Virus record (IMG/VR): IMGVR_UViG_3300033463_000027 | Coordinates: 75,525 to 139,524 of that record | DNA length: 64,000 nucleotides | Direction: 5' to 3' (one strand) | Source of the DNA: a virus | Taxonomy: Duplodnaviria > Caudoviricetes | Shown here: positions 10,428 to 14,354 of the stretch, piece after piece | Layout of the letters: each line of letters begins with the position of its first letter | How positions within the stretch are numbered: position 1 is the stretch's first letter | Position numbers and translations under genes: made by a program | The notes under the pieces: model-generated | Databases searched by the model: none | What the model saw: the letters and a program-made list of their open reading frames with translations, nothing else | What the model was told of the DNA's origin: nothing

Positions 10428-11713
10428 TTGGTGGTATATGTGATAAACAAAAACGGACAGCCGCTTATGCCAACCGAGAGACACGGTAAAGTGAGACGAT
10501 TGCTTAAAATAGGAAAGGCTAAAGTAATCAAACGCTGTCCGTTTACTATTCAGCTTCTTTATGCTACGACTGATTTTGTACAAGAAGTCACTTTGGGAGT
10601 AGATAGTGGGAGTAAGCATATTGGAGTATCAGCGACAACAAAAGACAAAGTTTTGTATGAAGCTGATATAGAGCTTAGAAACGATATTGTCAAGCTGTTA
10701 TCTGCAAGAAGAGAGGCAAGACGTACAAGGCGCAATAGAAAAACTCGTTACAGACAGGCTCGGTTTAACAACCGCAGTAAGCCCGATGGTTGGCTTGCCC
10801 CGTCAGTGCAACACAAGGTCGATGCTCATTTGACTGTCGTTCGTAAAGTGTATGAGATTCTTCCAATTGCAAAAATCATAGTCGAGGTTGCTTCTTTTGA
10901 TATTCAGAAAATCAAAAATCCATATATTAAGGGAGAAGAATATCAGCAAGGTGAACAGCTTGATTTCTGGAACGTAAGAGAGTATGTGCTTTTCAGAGAT
11001 AGTCATGTGTGTCAGTGTTGCAAGGGCAAATCAAAAGATAATATTCTCAATGTACATCACATAGAATCACGGCAGACAGGCGGGGATGCTCCCAATAACC
11101 TTATCACTCTCTGCGAGACCTGCCATTTAGGGTATCATAAAGGGACTGTGAAACTTCCAAAGACCATAAAGCGGGGGATGTCTTTTAGAGATGCAGCTTT
11201 CATGGGAATAATGCGATGGGCGTTTTACAATAAACTTAAATATATATATCCGAACGTTAATCTGACTTACGGATATATCACCAAAAACGCCCGTATTAAA
11301 AACACTCTTTCCAAAAGCCACTTTACAGATGCAAGGTGCATAAGCGGAAATCCGAAAGCTGTATCCGATGATGTAGTTTTCTATCAGAAAAAAGCCAGAT
11401 GTCATAACAGACAGATACATAAATACAACATACTCAAGGGCGGGTTGAAAAAGAAAAACCAAGCACCGTATGAAATGTTCGGTTTTAGGTTGTTTGACAG
11501 GGTAAAGTATCTTGGAAAAGAGTACTTTATCTTTGGTAGGAGAGCATCAGGATATTTTGATATAAGAGACTTACAAGGAAATAAGGTTAACAAAGGGAGT
11601 ATTTCCTATAAAAAGTTGACCTTTATCGAACGGGCTAAAACTTATTTAACTGAAAGGAGGAAGGAGCATTCCTCCCCGACTTTTGAAGTTGGGGTATCCT
11701 GCTCCTATTTTAG
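10134..11713 (+). mobile_element. non-autonomous IS200/IS605-superfamily IscB (OMEGA) element
   Basis: Starts GTCAA plus subterminal hairpin; ends with hairpin CCCCGACTT-TTG-AAGTTGGGG and abuts ATGAA; no tnpA. Confidence 0.88.
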
Positions 11714-11717
11714 ATGA
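10428..11717 (+). CDS. iscB: RNA-guided endonuclease IscB
   Basis: PLMP N-terminus, RuvC-I GVDSG, Arg-rich bridge helix, RuvC-II IVE, CxxC-HNH (VHHI..N..CETCH), RuvC-III HFTDA. Confidence 0.95.
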   Translation: MVVYVINKNGQPLMPTERHGKVRRLLKIGKAKVIKRCPFTIQLLYATTDFVQEVTLGVDSGSKHIGVSATTKDKVLYEADIELRNDIVKLLSARREARRTRRNRKTRYRQARFNNRSKPDGWLAPSVQHKVDAHLTVVRKVYEILPIAKIIVEVASFDIQKIKNPYIKGEEYQQGEQLDFWNVREYVLFRDSHVCQCCKGKSKDNILNVHHIESRQTGGDAPNNLITLCETCHLGYHKGTVKLPKTIKRGMSFRDAAFMGIMRWAFYNKLKYIYPNVNLTYGYITKNARIKNTLSKSHFTDARCISGNPKAVSDDVVFYQKKARCHNRQIHKYNILKGGLKKKNQAPYEMFGFRLFDRVKYLGKEYFIFGRRASGYFDIRDLQGNKVNKGSISYKKLTFIERAKTYLTERRKEHSSPTFEVGVSCSYFR

Positions 11718-11807
11718 ACTTAAAGTGATTACCATATAGTAAACGTGCGTATTATAGCGGTTCAGCGGAGTTATAAATCCGCGCATTGTCTTGAAAGGAG
11801 TATAAAT

Positions 11808-12773
11808 ATGGATAACACAGCAAGAAAGCTAACTATCAGCGGAAACAACATTGATATTTCCGTAGTCAAGTCCAAGAAAAAGGACAGAATACAATCTAAG
11901 ATTGTAACCGAGGACGAGTTCGCGGAGATTTATCGCTCTGCTGATGCGATAACTTCTGCAAAGGACATAGAAAATATGTGTCTTACGCTCTATAAAAGGG
12001 GTTATGTAGATAGCATGGTTCTCTTTATCGTTGGAACCAATATTGGCTATCGTCCTGTCGATTTACAAGCGTGGAGATGGGAGCAGATTACCGATGAAAA
12101 CGGAAACATTCTTCGGAGATTTGCTATGAACGAACACAAGACAAGCAAGATGACAGTAGTTAATTTCAATGAGACTGTTGTTAAACTTCTTACATGGTAT
12201 AGGGATTATAAAATGTCTCAACCCAAGTTTATGTGGGAGAATTATGTTTTTTCTGTAAGCATAAAAAATGCGGCAAGAAGTTATGTGTGGTATGATAAAG
12301 AAAACGATATTATCTATCACCAAGATAGGAAACATAAACAGTTGGGGCTTGTATATTATCATGAGGGCAAAAATATTATTACTTGTCCTGCGTGTGAAGT
12401 TATCGGAAACGAGAAGTATCTTAAATTGCAAAAGCCCATTACGACTGAAACTGCCAGTAACAATTTTATTGAAGCTGCGGAGAAATGCGGAATTGAGGGA
12501 CATTTTTCGTCATATACAATGCGGCAAACGTTCAGCTTTTGGTTTAGAAAAACCTTAAAAGAGGACGAAACTCTTGCAAATGTAGCTGATGAATACTTCT
12601 CGACCATGCTGCTGAGTGGATATTTTCAGCATAGCAGTTTAAAGGTCACGCAAAAACACTATATGCGAGATCAAGTTGCGTTATTCAGACAGATTGTAAA
12701 CAAGATGAACCTTGCTAAAGATTTTGTGGATTGTCTGGTCGAAAAGGATAATGCAGTACAGATGTGTTTATAA
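11808..12773 (+). CDS. tyrosine recombinase/integrase-family protein
   Basis: GYRPVDL (R), EHKT (K), YTMRQTF (HxxR variant), FQHSS..TQKHY (H, Y). Confidence 0.8.
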   Translation: MDNTARKLTISGNNIDISVVKSKKKDRIQSKIVTEDEFAEIYRSADAITSAKDIENMCLTLYKRGYVDSMVLFIVGTNIGYRPVDLQAWRWEQITDENGNILRRFAMNEHKTSKMTVVNFNETVVKLLTWYRDYKMSQPKFMWENYVFSVSIKNAARSYVWYDKENDIIYHQDRKHKQLGLVYYHEGKNIITCPACEVIGNEKYLKLQKPITTETASNNFIEAAEKCGIEGHFSSYTMRQTFSFWFRKTLKEDETLANVADEYFSTMLLSGYFQHSSLKVTQKHYMRDQVALFRQIVNKMNLAKDFVDCLVEKDNAVQMCL

Positions 12774-12834: not shown

Positions 12835-13416
12835 ATGAAAACTTTAAAGGTTACTTGGAAAGGCACAAAGACTCTGATTATGCACTCTTGCCAGTGCGTT
12901 AATCCCCTTAATCCGATTCAAAAGGAATTGAAAAAGTACACTTCAAAAAGAACCAAAACTGATGAAGATTTACAGAGAATTTCTGATCTTGAATGGGAAG
13001 CTGGGGCTTATTGGAAAGAAGGTATGGGACTTTATATCCCCGGAGAAAATGTGATAGCAACCATTATTAATGGTGCAAAACTCTTCAAGAAGGGTACTGA
13101 TGTTCAAAAGTATGTTTCTGTTCCTAATGTGCATATTCCGTTTAATTACGGAGAAAATCTCACTAAGGAAGAACTGATTGCTGATAAAGATTATCGTGAT
13201 GTAAGACCTATGGTCGTTGGTAAGGCAAAGGTTATAAGAACAAGACCAAGATTCGATCAGTGGAATATTACTTTTAACCTTGAATATGAAGAGGATAAGA
13301 TTGACCGTGATGTTGTCATTCTTGCATTAGAAAATGCAGGAAAGTATGTGGGGCTTTGCGATAGTCGCAACTATGGCTATGGGCGATTTGTCGTAAAAGC
13401 AGAAGAGTTGGATTGA
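12835..13416 (+). CDS. stand-alone RAMP/Cas7-like protein associated with the GTT-NN array
   Basis: N-terminal strand ending LIMH, LYIPGENV motif, RTRPRF, C-terminal Gly-rich loop GKYVGLCDSRNYGYGRF; AGGAGG RBS; no other cas genes nearby. Confidence 0.78.
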   Translation: MKTLKVTWKGTKTLIMHSCQCVNPLNPIQKELKKYTSKRTKTDEDLQRISDLEWEAGAYWKEGMGLYIPGENVIATIINGAKLFKKGTDVQKYVSVPNVHIPFNYGENLTKEELIADKDYRDVRPMVVGKAKVIRTRPRFDQWNITFNLEYEEDKIDRDVVILALENAGKYVGLCDSRNYGYGRFVVKAEELD

Positions 13417-13421
13417 GATAG

Positions 13422-13854
13422 GGATTATATGTTTGGTTCTGTTCTGTTGTGTTTCGTTAGGTTCCGTTCAGTTCAGTTGCGCTAAGTTATGTATTGTAGG
13501 TTGTGTTTTGTTTCGTTAAGTCGAGTTTCGTTGTGTTGTGTTGCGTTAGGTTGGGTATTATAAGTTAAGCTCCGTTGCGTTGAGTTTAGTTGTGTTAAGT
13601 TCAGTTTGGTTGGGATAGGTATTATAAGTTAAGTTAAGATGTATTATGTTGTGTTTAGTCAGGTTGCGTTAAGCTAAGTTAAGTATTATAAGTTAGGTTC
13701 TGTTTCGTTGTATTGAGTTATGTTGGGGTTCGTTTGGTTCGGTTATGTTTGGTTGAGCTAAGTATTATAAGTTGCGCTATATTAAGTTATGTTGAGTTAG
13801 GTCAAGTTGCGTTGCGTTATGTTAAGTTGCGTTGGGTTAAGTCAAGCATTATAG
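13422..13854 (+). repeat. array of 74 GTT-NN pentamers in six units delimited by GTATTATAA-like separators; candidate guide-RNA array
   Basis: Separators at 13422, 13491, 13555, 13619, 13683, 13762, 13846; units of 12, 11, 11, 11, 14 and 15 pentamers; 59 of 74 start GTT and the other 15 differ by one base. Confidence 0.93.
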
Positions 13855-13889: not shown

Positions 13890-14354
13890 ATGAATGAGTT
13901 AATCAACAATAAGACAATCGCGGAGGTTCTTGCGGAAGAAATTGATAAACTTCCCTATGAAACTGTAATCGAGCATGGACAAATAGAGTCCATCATCGGA
14001 GTTCCGAGAGGTCTGAACAAGTATGGTTCTACTATTGCAAAAGCAAAGAAGTTACTTATAGAGAAGCGGAAACATATTGAGAGTATACGGGGTGTTGGTT
14101 ATCGGATAGTCGCGCCTGATAACGTGATAGATCGTTCACTTCATCACATTAAAAGAGGTTGTAATGAAATCAAAAAAGGGCAGGAAATCTTAGATCATGC
14201 ACCTGTTAATGATATGAGTGTAGAGGGTCGTGAAGCCTATCGTAGAGTATATGACAGAGCTGTTATCCTTGATGCTGCTATGAAAGGCGCTGCCGTGGAG
14301 CTTAAAGAGCTTGCGGGTAAACGTCCTCATCCGTTTTTGTTTTGTAAGAAATGA
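13890..14354 (+). CDS. putative winged-helix DNA-binding accessory protein
   Basis: AGAAAGG RBS before ATG 13890; IESIRGVGYRIV wing-like motif followed by helical C-terminus. Confidence 0.65.
   Translation: MNELINNKTIAEVLAEEIDKLPYETVIEHGQIESIIGVPRGLNKYGSTIAKAKKLLIEKRKHIESIRGVGYRIVAPDNVIDRSLHHIKRGCNEIKKGQEILDHAPVNDMSVEGREAYRRVYDRAVILDAAMKGAAVELKELAGKRPHPFLFCKK

What the first reader, a model, noticed from the sequence alone, without database searches (positions are those of the whole stretch)
13422..13854. Two-level grammar of the array and the six decoded dinucleotide strings
Seen: separators GGATTATAT (13422), GTATTGTAG (13491), GTATTATAA (13555, 13619, 13683, 13762) and GCATTATAG (13846) give periods of 69, 64, 64, 64, 79 and 84 nt, always 9+5n, with no phase slip. 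Positions 1-3 are GTT in 59 of 74 pentamers and one mismatch away in the rest. Positions 4-5 use 15 of 16 dinucleotides. Strings: U1 TG CT CT GT TC AG CC CA CA GC AA AT; U2 GT TT TC AA GA TC GT GT GC AG GG; U3 AA CC GC GA TA GT AA CA TG GG AG; U4 AA AA GT AT GT TA AG GC AA AA AA; U5 AG CT TC GT GA AT GG TC TG CG AT TG GA AA; U6 GC AT AA AT GA AG AA GC GC AT AA GC GG AA AA. A slippage microsatellite would homogenise neighbouring units and lose phase. Here variation is confined to two positions and every unit differs, as expected for stored information. The separator is the likely processing site or handle (inference).
Basis: seen in the sequence. Interest (0 to 1): 0.9.

Follow-up and report, generated by a model that had tools for sequence, protein, structure and literature searches.

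The report
Phage VIPR guide-RNA array (GUU-NN)

Summary
This is the only such array in a 139.5-kb gut phage.

- **Flanking genes.** The gene ending 5 nt upstream (12835-13416) is a full-length homologue of the solved SUSP1 Vipr protein (E 4.8e-28). It has a Cas7-like fold. The gene downstream (13890-14354) is a Vap1-like winged-helix protein.
- **Identification.** The locus is a VIPR system (bioRxiv 10.64898/2026.04.26.720920, .720927, 2026.10.15.759431). Each unit is a guide RNA, GUU is the protein-bound scaffold, and NN is the code.
- **Relatives.** In 22 related loci (88 units), positions 4-5 are hypervariable and 1-3 are conserved. The closest relative has almost entirely different units between conserved flanks.
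- **Skip rule.** Only the published 1-nt-skip rule gives significant targets. Two relatives' guides hit rival vipr genes at 30/32 and 25/26 positions.
- **Targets.** No target was found for this window's own six guides.
- **Differences from the published type II.** The scaffold is GUU rather than GGY, with Ser replacing the Trp that stacks on G2. The delimiter is 9 nt rather than a pseudoknot tail. The array lies between vipr and vap.

This scan has noted VIPR-type arrays on other DNA many times: 235 notes in at least 187 genomes hold the search words.

The parts
12835..13416 (+). vipr gene (193 aa, P0121): single-RRM RAMP/Cas7-like protein that coats the guide RNA, one protomer per pentamer
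   Evidence: phmmer against PDB 36pp 'SUSP1 Vipr protein' gives E 4.8e-28 over residues 1-188. The family profile gives E 1.6e-62. The AF2 model has pLDDT 97.7, and its top Foldseek hits are Csm3, Cmr4 and type VII Cas7. phrog_4652.
12874..12923 (-). Site inside this phage's own vipr (codons ~14-30) matched by a rival prophage's guide (L149 unit 1) under the 1-nt-skip rule
   Evidence: 29 of 34 NN bases match. That is 28 of 32 without the terminal pentamer (my count). The same guide matches L131's vipr at 30/32.
13422..13430 (+). First delimiter GGATTATAT (array leader side)
   Evidence: the same GATAG-GGATTATAA leader is present in relative L186
13431..13490 (+). vrRNA unit 1, 12 pentamers; NN = TG CT CT GT TC AG CC CA CA GC AA AT
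13491..13499 (+). Delimiter GTATTGTAG
13500..13554 (+). vrRNA unit 2, 11 pentamers
13555..13563 (+). Delimiter GTATTATAA
   Evidence: family logo G[CT]ATT[AT]T[AG]N
13564..13618 (+). vrRNA unit 3, 11 pentamers
13619..13627 (+). Delimiter GTATTATAA
13628..13682 (+). vrRNA unit 4, 11 pentamers
13683..13691 (+). Delimiter GTATTATAA
13692..13761 (+). vrRNA unit 5, 14 pentamers
13762..13770 (+). Delimiter GTATTATAA
13771..13845 (+). vrRNA unit 6, 15 pentamers; the only unit partly shared with the closest relative
13846..13854 (+). Last delimiter GCATTATAG (trailer side, conserved in relatives)
13890..14354 (+). vap gene (154 aa, P0122): Vap1-like winged-helix plus helical accessory protein
   Evidence: hhalign of the 16-sequence profile A2 against SUSP1 vap1 gives 93.8% probability and E 1.8e-7 over the WH domain. 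BLASTP gives E 1e-4 with a shared GVGYR.V.P motif. The AF2 model has pLDDT 87 with an H-E-H-H-E-E topology. Foldseek matches are weak and go to OmpR, ToxR and GntR wHTH domains. The gene is conserved after the array in 19 of the 20 relatives where an ORF of at least 110 aa follows the array; the 21st, L138, runs off its contig.

Best explanation
The array encodes six VIPR guide RNAs (vrRNAs).

**Proposed mechanism**
- The region is probably transcribed together with vipr and cut into units at or near the AU-rich delimiters G[CU]AUU[AU]U[AG]N.
- Vipr protomers then polymerise along each unit, one per pentamer. They bury the constant G-U-U bases and present the two variable bases.
- The 10-14 NN pairs of a unit base-pair with a double-stranded DNA target that reads NNxNNx..., with one base skipped, usually the codon wobble base.
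- This forms a filament that silences transcription of a competing mobile element. The winged-helix Vap probably assists.

**Shown here**
- Homology of both flanking proteins to SUSP1 Vipr and Vap1.
- The pentamer grammar and its conservation in 22 loci.
- Hypervariability of NN, and validity of the 1-nt-skip rule in this GUU clade.

**Taken from the papers**
- Filament formation, gapped pairing and silencing.

**Inferred**
- Co-transcription, cleavage at the delimiter, and the identity of this phage's targets.
For: **Proteins**
- P0121 is a Vipr homologue with a Cas7-like fold.
- The residues the cryo-EM paper assigns to G1 (H17, D177), to Y3 (E71, R179) and to the skip base (K33) are conserved, as is the thumb Arg R138. 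Trp178, which stacks on G2, is Ser, matching the change of G2 to U (paper 10.64898/2026.04.26.720927).
- Within the clade, Ser goes with a position-2 base that is mostly T and rarely G. The Tyr (L135) and Cys (L150) variants have GGY pentamers.
- Vap is Vap1-like.

**Array grammar in relatives**
- The same vipr-array-vap order and the same grammar occur in 22 loci from gut phages and Lachnospiraceae prophages.
- Units hold 7-21 pentamers. The published range is 9-16, with up to 30 reported.
- Over 982 pentamers, entropy is 0.18, 1.49 and 0.43 bits at positions 1-3 and 1.86 and 1.90 bits at positions 4-5.
- The closest relative has flanks 86-91% identical in DNA but different units.

**Skip rule**
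- Only skip = 1 gives significant non-array hits: L149 unit 1 at 30/32 and L148 unit 1 at 25/26, with E about 1e-7 and 2e-6.
- Both hits lie in rival vipr genes, one in the early codons and one in the G-loop codons GLCDSRPKYGKFV. Shuffles give none.
- This mirrors the vipr-targeting guides in paper 10.64898/2026.10.15.759431.

**Other signals**
- NN frequencies track codon positions 1-2 in the sense orientation (r = 0.93, against 0.21 for antisense).
- There is no self-target in the phage's own genome.
- The array RNA folds less stably than all 100 shuffles (z = +2.84).
- There are no promoter or terminator matches inside the array on its own (+) strand; the one promoter-like match within it is on the - strand.
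Against: - No target was found for any of the window's six guides. The searches were:
  - exact 1-skip scans of IMG/VR for U1, U2, U3, U5 and U6;
  - GTDB genomes for U1, U5 and U6;
  - JGI metagenomes for U1 and U3, where U3 gave 2 hits judged to be chance;
  - scans allowing up to 3 mismatches in 401 Lachnospiraceae genomes for U6;
  - five prophage hosts;
  - five whole related phage genomes plus 1.4 Mb of loci.
- Five of the six IMG/VR scans included the terminal pentamer, which probably does not pair. A target there could have been missed, and U4 was never scanned against any collection.
- There are no expression or RNA-end data for this phage.
- There is no structured 3' tail like the published pseudoknot, so capping and processing must differ.
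- The link between the G-loop residue and position 2 rests on only two or three independent switches.
- The sense-codon-like NN composition could partly reflect strand composition or protein-binding preferences.
Confidence: 0.9

Rival explanations
1. The array is a binding platform on RNA or single-stranded DNA for a ring or filament protein, like TRAP on (G/U)AG-NN repeats. It would serve regulation or sequestration. The NN bases would be neutral spacers that carry no information.
For: The motif has 5-nt periodicity with a conserved triplet. Several units have 11 pentamers, like TRAP's 11 sites. No target was found for the six window guides.
Against: - Unit length varies from 7 to 21 pentamers across relatives, so there is no fixed ring stoichiometry.
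- The adjacent protein is a Vipr homologue, not a TRAP-like protein.
- Two relatives' NN strings spell rival vipr genes at 30/32 and 25/26 positions, only at gap 1.
- NN composition matches codon positions 1-2, which neutral spacers would not do.
Confidence: 0.04
2. The array is a double-stranded DNA element: a plasmid-prophage centromere, origin iterons or recombination sites. It would be bound by the downstream winged-helix protein or the upstream tyrosine recombinase.
For: A wHTH gene follows the array, and a tyrosine recombinase gene lies at 11745-12773. The 9-mers are regularly spaced.
Against: - A 5-bp repeat puts successive motifs on opposite faces of the duplex, which is unusual for iterons.
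- The recombinase is conserved only in the two closest relatives.
- The strand asymmetry is absolute: all repeats lie on the transcribed strand.
- Homology to the experimentally characterised Vipr/vrRNA pair explains all the features.
Confidence: 0.03
3. The array is a decaying or orphaned VIPR array. The RNAs would still be made, but the system would no longer silence anything, so the lack of detectable targets would be real.
For: No targets were found. Two relatives (L132, L139) carry in-frame TAA stops in vipr, and in L129 only one unit precedes an IS5-like transposase ORF. Decay therefore does occur in the clade.
Against: In the window, vipr and vap are intact, 59 of 74 scaffolds are perfect, and the phase is never lost. 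Array content turns over quickly among relatives, which argues for ongoing selection. The databases sample gut mobile elements poorly.
Confidence: 0.03

Closest known systems
Type II VIPR of Escherichia phage SUSP1 and the Pseudomonas fulva prophage (Vipr + Vap1 + vrRNAs; bioRxiv 10.64898/2026.04.26.720920 and 10.64898/2026.04.26.720927; PDB 36pp)
   Same: - The Vipr protein is homologous over its full length (32% identity, E 4.8e-28).
- The Vap1-like winged-helix partner is present.
- Guides are built of tandem pentamers with 3 constant and 2 variable bases, 11-15 per guide.
- The 1-nt-skip rule holds in this clade.
- The system is phage-encoded and has no self-targets.
- Some guides in the clade target rival vipr genes.
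   Different: - The constant triplet is G-U-U (G-N-U across the clade) instead of G-G-Y. The G2-stacking Trp178 is replaced by Ser and Met72 by Asn.
- There is no pseudoknot tail of about 40 nt. There is only a conserved last pentamer GUUAR plus a 9-nt AU-rich delimiter.
- Six guides are packed head to tail between vipr and vap. SUSP1 has one guide upstream and three downstream of vipr-vap1, each with its own leader.
- The host is Lachnospiraceae rather than Proteobacteria.
'Staggered' VIPR arrays with abutting or overlapping vrRNAs (fig. S18 legend of 10.64898/2026.04.26.720920)
   Same: [quoted passage not shown] The 9-nt delimiter here shifts the pentamer register by -1 between units.
   Different: The figure and supplementary data are not available to me. 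I therefore could not test whether that architecture has the same delimiter, motif or clade.
Class 1 CRISPR crRNA-Cas7 backbone (types I, III and VII)
   Same: The RAMP fold has a G-loop and a thumb. One protomer binds per fixed-length RNA segment. The array holds variable guide segments between constant segments, and its content turns over fast between close relatives.
   Different: - Periodicity is 5 nt, with only 2 pairing bases per protomer, against 6 nt with 5 pairing bases in CRISPR.
- There is no cas1/cas2 and no palindromic repeat.
- The constant part is interleaved with the guide rather than flanking it.
- The system is carried by phages.
TRAP binding sites in the Bacillus trp leader: 11 (G/U)AG triplets with 2-3 nt spacers
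   Same: A conserved triplet plus about 2 variable bases, repeated about 11 times on RNA, each triplet held by one protein subunit.
   Different: TRAP spacers carry no code and the protein is a closed 11-mer ring. Here unit length varies and the spacers spell targets.

Membership tests
VIPR system | Vipr protein: single-RRM RAMP with a G-loop and thumb, homologous to SUSP1 Vipr | tested here: met
   phmmer gives E 4.8e-28 over the full length against PDB 36pp, and the profile gives E 1.6e-62. The AF2 model has pLDDT 97.7 and matches Csm3, Cmr4 and Cas7. A G-loop VGLCDSRNYGYG is present.
VIPR system | vrRNA made of tandem pentamers with a conserved triplet alternating with a hypervariable NN; published 9-16 repeats, up to 30 | tested here: met
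   The six units hold 11-15 pentamers. Entropy is 0.24, 0.63 and 0.30 bits at positions 1-3 and 1.85 and 1.97 bits at positions 4-5. The same holds in 22 loci.
VIPR system | Conserved triplet is GGY (canonical) or a 'related consensus'; the published alternatives are NNNGG, YNNNG and NNNNG | tested here: inconclusive
   The triplet here is GUU, with G1 and U3 kept and position 2 = U. None of the three alternatives named in the methods text keeps G1 while losing G2. The published logos (fig. S17) are not available to me.
VIPR system | Target recognition by NN with a 1-nt skip in the target | tested here: met
   This is met for the clade, not for the window's own guides. Two relatives' guides match rival vipr genes at 30/32 and 25/26 positions only at skip 1, and shuffles give none. 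The window's guides have no hits.
VIPR system | Invariant structured 3' tail capping each vrRNA (a pseudoknot in the SUSP1 clade) | tested here: not met
   Only a conserved GTTAR pentamer plus the 9-nt G[CT]ATT[AT]T[AG]N follows each unit. The whole array folds worse than shuffles. The paper describes the tail for type II only and reports other architectures, so this does not define the whole family.
VIPR system | Adjacent vap accessory gene with a DNA-interaction domain | tested here: met
   P0122 and profile A2 against SUSP1 vap1 give hhalign 93.8% and E 1.8e-7. The model shows a WH topology. The gene is conserved after the array in 19 of the 20 relatives where an ORF of at least 110 aa follows it.
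VIPR system | Mostly encoded by viruses or proviruses; no self-targeting | tested here: met
   The source is an IMG/VR phage genome of 139.5 kb, 97% complete. Relatives lie in viral contigs and Lachnospiraceae prophages. The best self-match does not exceed shuffles.
VIPR system | vrRNAs are expressed, co-purify with Vipr and silence transcription | not testable with these tools
   This needs small-RNA sequencing, pull-down and reporter assays.
CRISPR array | Identical direct repeats of about 24-40 nt separating unique spacers, with cas1/cas2 nearby | tested here: not met
   The delimiters are 9 nt and the 'spacers' are themselves pentamer repeats. No Rfam CRISPR repeat scores at or above threshold. 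No cas genes appear among the six flanking ORFs scanned.

The most novel reading that the evidence does not exclude
This Lachnospiraceae-phage clade is a distinct VIPR subtype with two features.

- The scaffold specificity has been rewired from GGY to G-N-U by loss of the G2-stacking Trp in the G-loop. Tyr and Cys variants within the clade have reverted to, or retained, GGY.
- The guides are released from a tail-less, head-to-tail array at a 9-nt AU-rich site, possibly by a host single-strand endonuclease, instead of being capped by a pseudoknot.

If this subtype is not already in the published type tables, it would give a natural series of Vipr/scaffold pairs with orthogonal RNA specificity and the most compact multiplex guide array yet seen for VIPR.
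Probability: 0.3. Interest if true: 0.6.

Novelty: new member of a known kind. Interest (0 to 1): 0.4.

Why it matters
- **Range.** The result extends a just-described RNA-guided system (VIPR) to large gut phages and prophages of Lachnospiraceae. It shows that the 1-nt-skip code also holds when the scaffold is GUU rather than GGY.
- **Engineering.** The Trp-to-Ser change, and the Tyr and Cys variants inside one clade, point to the residue that sets scaffold specificity. That is useful for building orthogonal Vipr/guide pairs.
- **Multiplexing.** The 9-nt delimiter suggests a very compact way to express several guides from one array.
- **Ecology.** Guides aimed at rival vipr genes, nonsense-mutated vipr genes with retained arrays, and complete guide turnover between phages with 95% identical Vipr proteins all indicate an active arms race among gut phages.

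Tried and rejected
**Ideas rejected**
- **TRAP-like fixed ring** (my first idea). Unit sizes range from 7 to 21 pentamers in relatives.
- **Known RNA family.** Rfam gave nothing on the array.
- **Close DNA match in known phages.** There was no blastn hit in INPHARED.
- **Internal promoters at the 9-mers.** No sigma-70-like site lies on the + strand inside the array, and the pentamer phase cannot place a TTG at -35 (and reading of the sequence).
- **Guides against other arrays' handles.** No excess over shuffles.
- **Tyrosine recombinase or RRXRR-HNH gene as part of the system.** Neither is conserved across the family.

**Target searches for the window's guides, all negative**
- Own genome at skips 0-3.
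- 1.37 Mb of loci.
- Five whole related phage genomes.
- IMG/VR exact scans for U1, U2, U3, U5 and U6, plus U6 without its last NN.
- GTDB genomes, exact, for U5, U6 and U1 without the last NN.
- JGI metagenomes for U1 (0 hits) and U3. U3 gave 2 hits, in an ABC-ATPase gene and an MCP gene of unrelated contigs at 45-50% GC. About 1-2 are expected by chance for 20 specified bases, so I reject them.
- 401 Lachnospiraceae genomes, up to 3 mismatches, for U6.
- Five prophage-host genomes for U6, U5 and U1.

**A flaw in the search**
- The first five IMG/VR scans included the last pentamer. I later found that it belongs to the handle, so those scans were stricter than intended. No viral scans remained to repeat them.

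Full report
**1. The observation**

There are seven 9-nt delimiters: GGATTATAT, GTATTGTAG, GTATTATAA four times, and GCATTATAG. They bound six units of 12, 11, 11, 11, 14 and 15 pentamers. In all there are 74 pentamers with no phase slip, 59 of them GTT. The other 15 are one mismatch away, and 15 of the 16 dinucleotides occur at positions 4-5.

A pattern of five GTT pentamers with up to one mismatch matches 40 times, all on the + strand inside the array. Shuffles give 0.01. The window is the last 64 kb of a 139.5-kb IMG/VR phage record that is 97% complete, and that genome has no other such array. TRF sees only fragments with periods of 5 to 40, as expected when two of every five positions are free.

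**2. Context**

The array fills the gap between two + strand genes.
- Upstream lies 12835-13416 (193 aa, P0121, phrog_4652). Its stop codon is 5 nt before the first delimiter.
- Downstream lies 13890-14354 (154 aa, P0122, phrog_5926).
- Further upstream are an RRXRR+HNH gene and a tyrosine recombinase gene. They are not conserved with the array across relatives.

**3. What the flanking proteins are**

P0121 belongs to a very large family, with 2,324 cluster representatives at E ≤ 0.001. A 134-sequence alignment (A1) gave an AlphaFold model with pLDDT 97.7. Its best PDB fold matches are Cas7-type RAMPs: Csm3, Cmr4 and type VII Cas7.

By sequence, P0121 matches one solved structure, 36pp "SUSP1 Vipr protein". 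The pairwise E-value is 4.8e-28 over residues 1-188, and the profile E-value is 1.6e-62.

A literature search then found three 2026 preprints on VIPR (Viral Interference Programmable Repeat) systems. They report the following.
- A small phage-encoded RAMP (Vipr) polymerises on vrRNAs made of 9-16 GGY/NN pentamers plus a 3' tail.
- Each protomer buries GGY and presents NN.
- The NN bases pair with dsDNA that reads xNN, with one base skipped, usually the codon wobble base.
- Binding silences transcription of rival mobile elements.
- Seven types and six vap accessory genes are described.

P0122 is related to SUSP1 Vap1.
- BLASTP gives E 1e-4 with a shared GVGYR.V.P motif.
- A 16-sequence profile against SUSP1 vap1 gives hhalign 93.8% probability and E 1.8e-7 over the winged-helix part.
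- Its model (pLDDT 87) has winged-helix topology followed by helices.
- The model weakly resembles OmpR, ToxR and GntR DNA-binding domains.

**4. The array in relatives**

I found homologues of P0121 in 13 viral contigs, 9 Lachnospiraceae or Clostridia genomes and 3 Logan contigs. Nearly all carry the same grammar directly after the stop codon, and a P0122 homologue follows the array in 19 of the 20 parsed relatives where an ORF of at least 110 aa could be called.

Over 88 units and 982 pentamers the pattern is consistent.
- Position 1 is G in 98% of pentamers.
- Position 3 is T in 92%.
- Position 2 is T in 64%, with A or C allowed and G rare.
- Positions 4-5 have 1.86 and 1.90 bits of entropy.

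Units hold 7-21 pentamers.

The junction logo shows that the last pentamer is itself conserved as G-T-T-A-R, with A at N4 in 87% of junctions. It precedes G-[CT]-A-T-T-[AT]-T-[AG]-N.

Array content turns over much faster than the flanks.
- L136-L139 share identical leaders and trailers but have different sets of units, with one unit common to three of them.
- The closest relative found, L186, has a 95% identical Vipr and flanking DNA 86-91% identical. It has four units, none shared with the window except part of the last.

**5. Is the code real in this clade?**

I scanned all 88 family guides against 1.37 Mb of held loci. I then scanned them against five whole related phage genomes plus the window's own genome. 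I used 0-3 skipped bases and shuffled-order controls.

Apart from array-to-array self matches at skip 3, the only significant hits were at skip 1.
- L149 unit 1 matches the antisense strand of vipr codons ~14-30 of L131 at 30 of 32 positions (E about 1e-7).
- L148 unit 1 spells the sense codons of the G-loop GLCDSRPKYGKFV of L129's vipr at 25 of 26 positions (E about 2e-6).
- Shuffled guides gave nothing below E 0.01.

In both cases the terminal pentamer did not fully pair (one of its two bases matched in the first case, neither in the second). This agrees with its conservation as part of the handle.

Guides against the early codons and the end of rival vipr genes are just what the October 2026 preprint reports for SUSP1-like phages. 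The L149 guide also matches this window's own vipr (12874-12923, - strand) at 29 of 34 positions. That is above the papers' 80% threshold.

Independently, NN dinucleotide frequencies in the 86 unique guides track codon positions 1-2 of the phage's genes read in sense (r = 0.93). They do not track antisense (r = 0.21). Per-guide log-odds are indistinguishable from real sense-strand gene segments, with a mean of 0.27 against 0.29. This fits wobble-skipping of coding targets. It also suggests a strong sense-strand bias, although strand composition could contribute.

**6. The window's own guides**

I found no target.
- The best self-matches equal those of shuffles, consistent with the papers' absence of self-targeting.
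- Exact 1-skip scans of IMG/VR, GTDB species genomes and JGI metagenomes gave only two hits, and mismatch-tolerant scans of 401 Lachnospiraceae genomes, five prophage hosts and five related phages gave none.
- The two hits were 20-base matches that look like chance.
- Five of the six IMG/VR scans wrongly included the terminal pentamer, and U4 was never scanned against a collection. The negative result is therefore weaker than it looks.

**7. How this member differs from the published type II**

*(a) Scaffold.* The scaffold is GUU, not GGY. In the alignment to SUSP1 Vipr, the residues assigned to G1 (H17, D177), Y3 (E71, R179), the thumb Arg (R138) and the skip-base Lys (K33) are kept. Trp178, which stacks on G2, is Ser, and Met72 is Asn.

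Among 22 clade members, Ser goes with T-dominant position 2. The single Tyr variant (L135) and the single Cys variant (L150) have GGT or GGY pentamers. This is a suggestive specificity switch, but it rests on few independent events. The methods text of the discovery paper lists NNNGG, YNNNG and NNNNG as alternative repeats. None of these keeps G1 while losing G2. I cannot see its fig. S17 or its data tables.

*(b) Tail.* There is no structured tail. SUSP1 vrRNAs each carry a pseudoknot tail of about 40 nt and their own leader. Here only GUUAR plus 9 nt separate the guides. The whole array RNA folds worse than every one of 100 shuffles. No promoter or terminator consensus lies on the array's own strand within it. 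The array is therefore probably co-transcribed with vipr and cut. The delimiter G[CU]↓AUU fits the RN↓WUU preference reported for RNase E-type enzymes. That is from my own knowledge, untested, and only an inference. This arrangement may correspond to the "staggered arrays" of fig. S18.

*(c) Gene order.* The order is vipr-array-vap, rather than vrRNA-vipr-vap1-vrRNAs.

**8. Verdict**

The kind of system has been in print since April 2026. This scan has already noted it on many other genomes: 235 notes in at least 187 genomes hold the search words, including other non-GGY scaffolds. I file it as a new member of a known kind with variant features. Its targets are unknown.

Noticed in passing
L149:3601-3685 (Dorea sp. 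MAG prophage) against window 12874-12923 (-): A rival prophage's first guide matches this phage's own vipr gene (codons ~14-30) at 29 of 34 NN bases under the 1-nt-skip rule. This phage's VIPR may itself be a target.
   Followed up: partly
L132:3052-3054 and L139:3130-3132: Two related phages carry in-frame TAA nonsense codons in vipr, at codons 18 and 44, yet keep full guide arrays and vap. This resembles the 'VIPR-null, solo vrRNA' phages of the October 2026 preprint. Sequencing error is not excluded.
   Followed up: partly
L129:3596-4150: In this relative only one unit is left, and an ORF beginning MLRRYELTDEEWLRIEPLL follows in place of vap. I recognise that N-terminus from memory as IS5-family transposase-like and ran no family search on it. 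The array may have been cut by an IS insertion.
   Followed up: no
window 10428-11717 (+): A 429-aa protein has a full RRXRR domain (PF14239, E 1e-68) plus HNH, the IscB-like/HNH endonuclease architecture. It lies two genes upstream of vipr and is absent from relatives' loci, so it is probably an independent mobile insertion. I did not look for an omega-RNA.
   Followed up: partly
window 11745-12773 (+): A tyrosine recombinase gene lies directly upstream of vipr. It is conserved only in the two closest relatives (L186, L187; 76-77% identity).
   Followed up: partly
L133:5017-5140: This relative has a second set of GTT-NN pentamer runs about 1.4 kb downstream of the first array, beyond vap. Some clade members therefore carry two arrays.
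   Followed up: no
86 unique guides from 22 loci (/scratch/units.pkl): The guides look almost exclusively like sense-strand codon positions 1-2, with an implied sense fraction of about 0.97. The papers report targets on both strands. This is either a real strand bias in this clade or a composition effect.
   Followed up: partly
I did not examine it.
   Followed up: no
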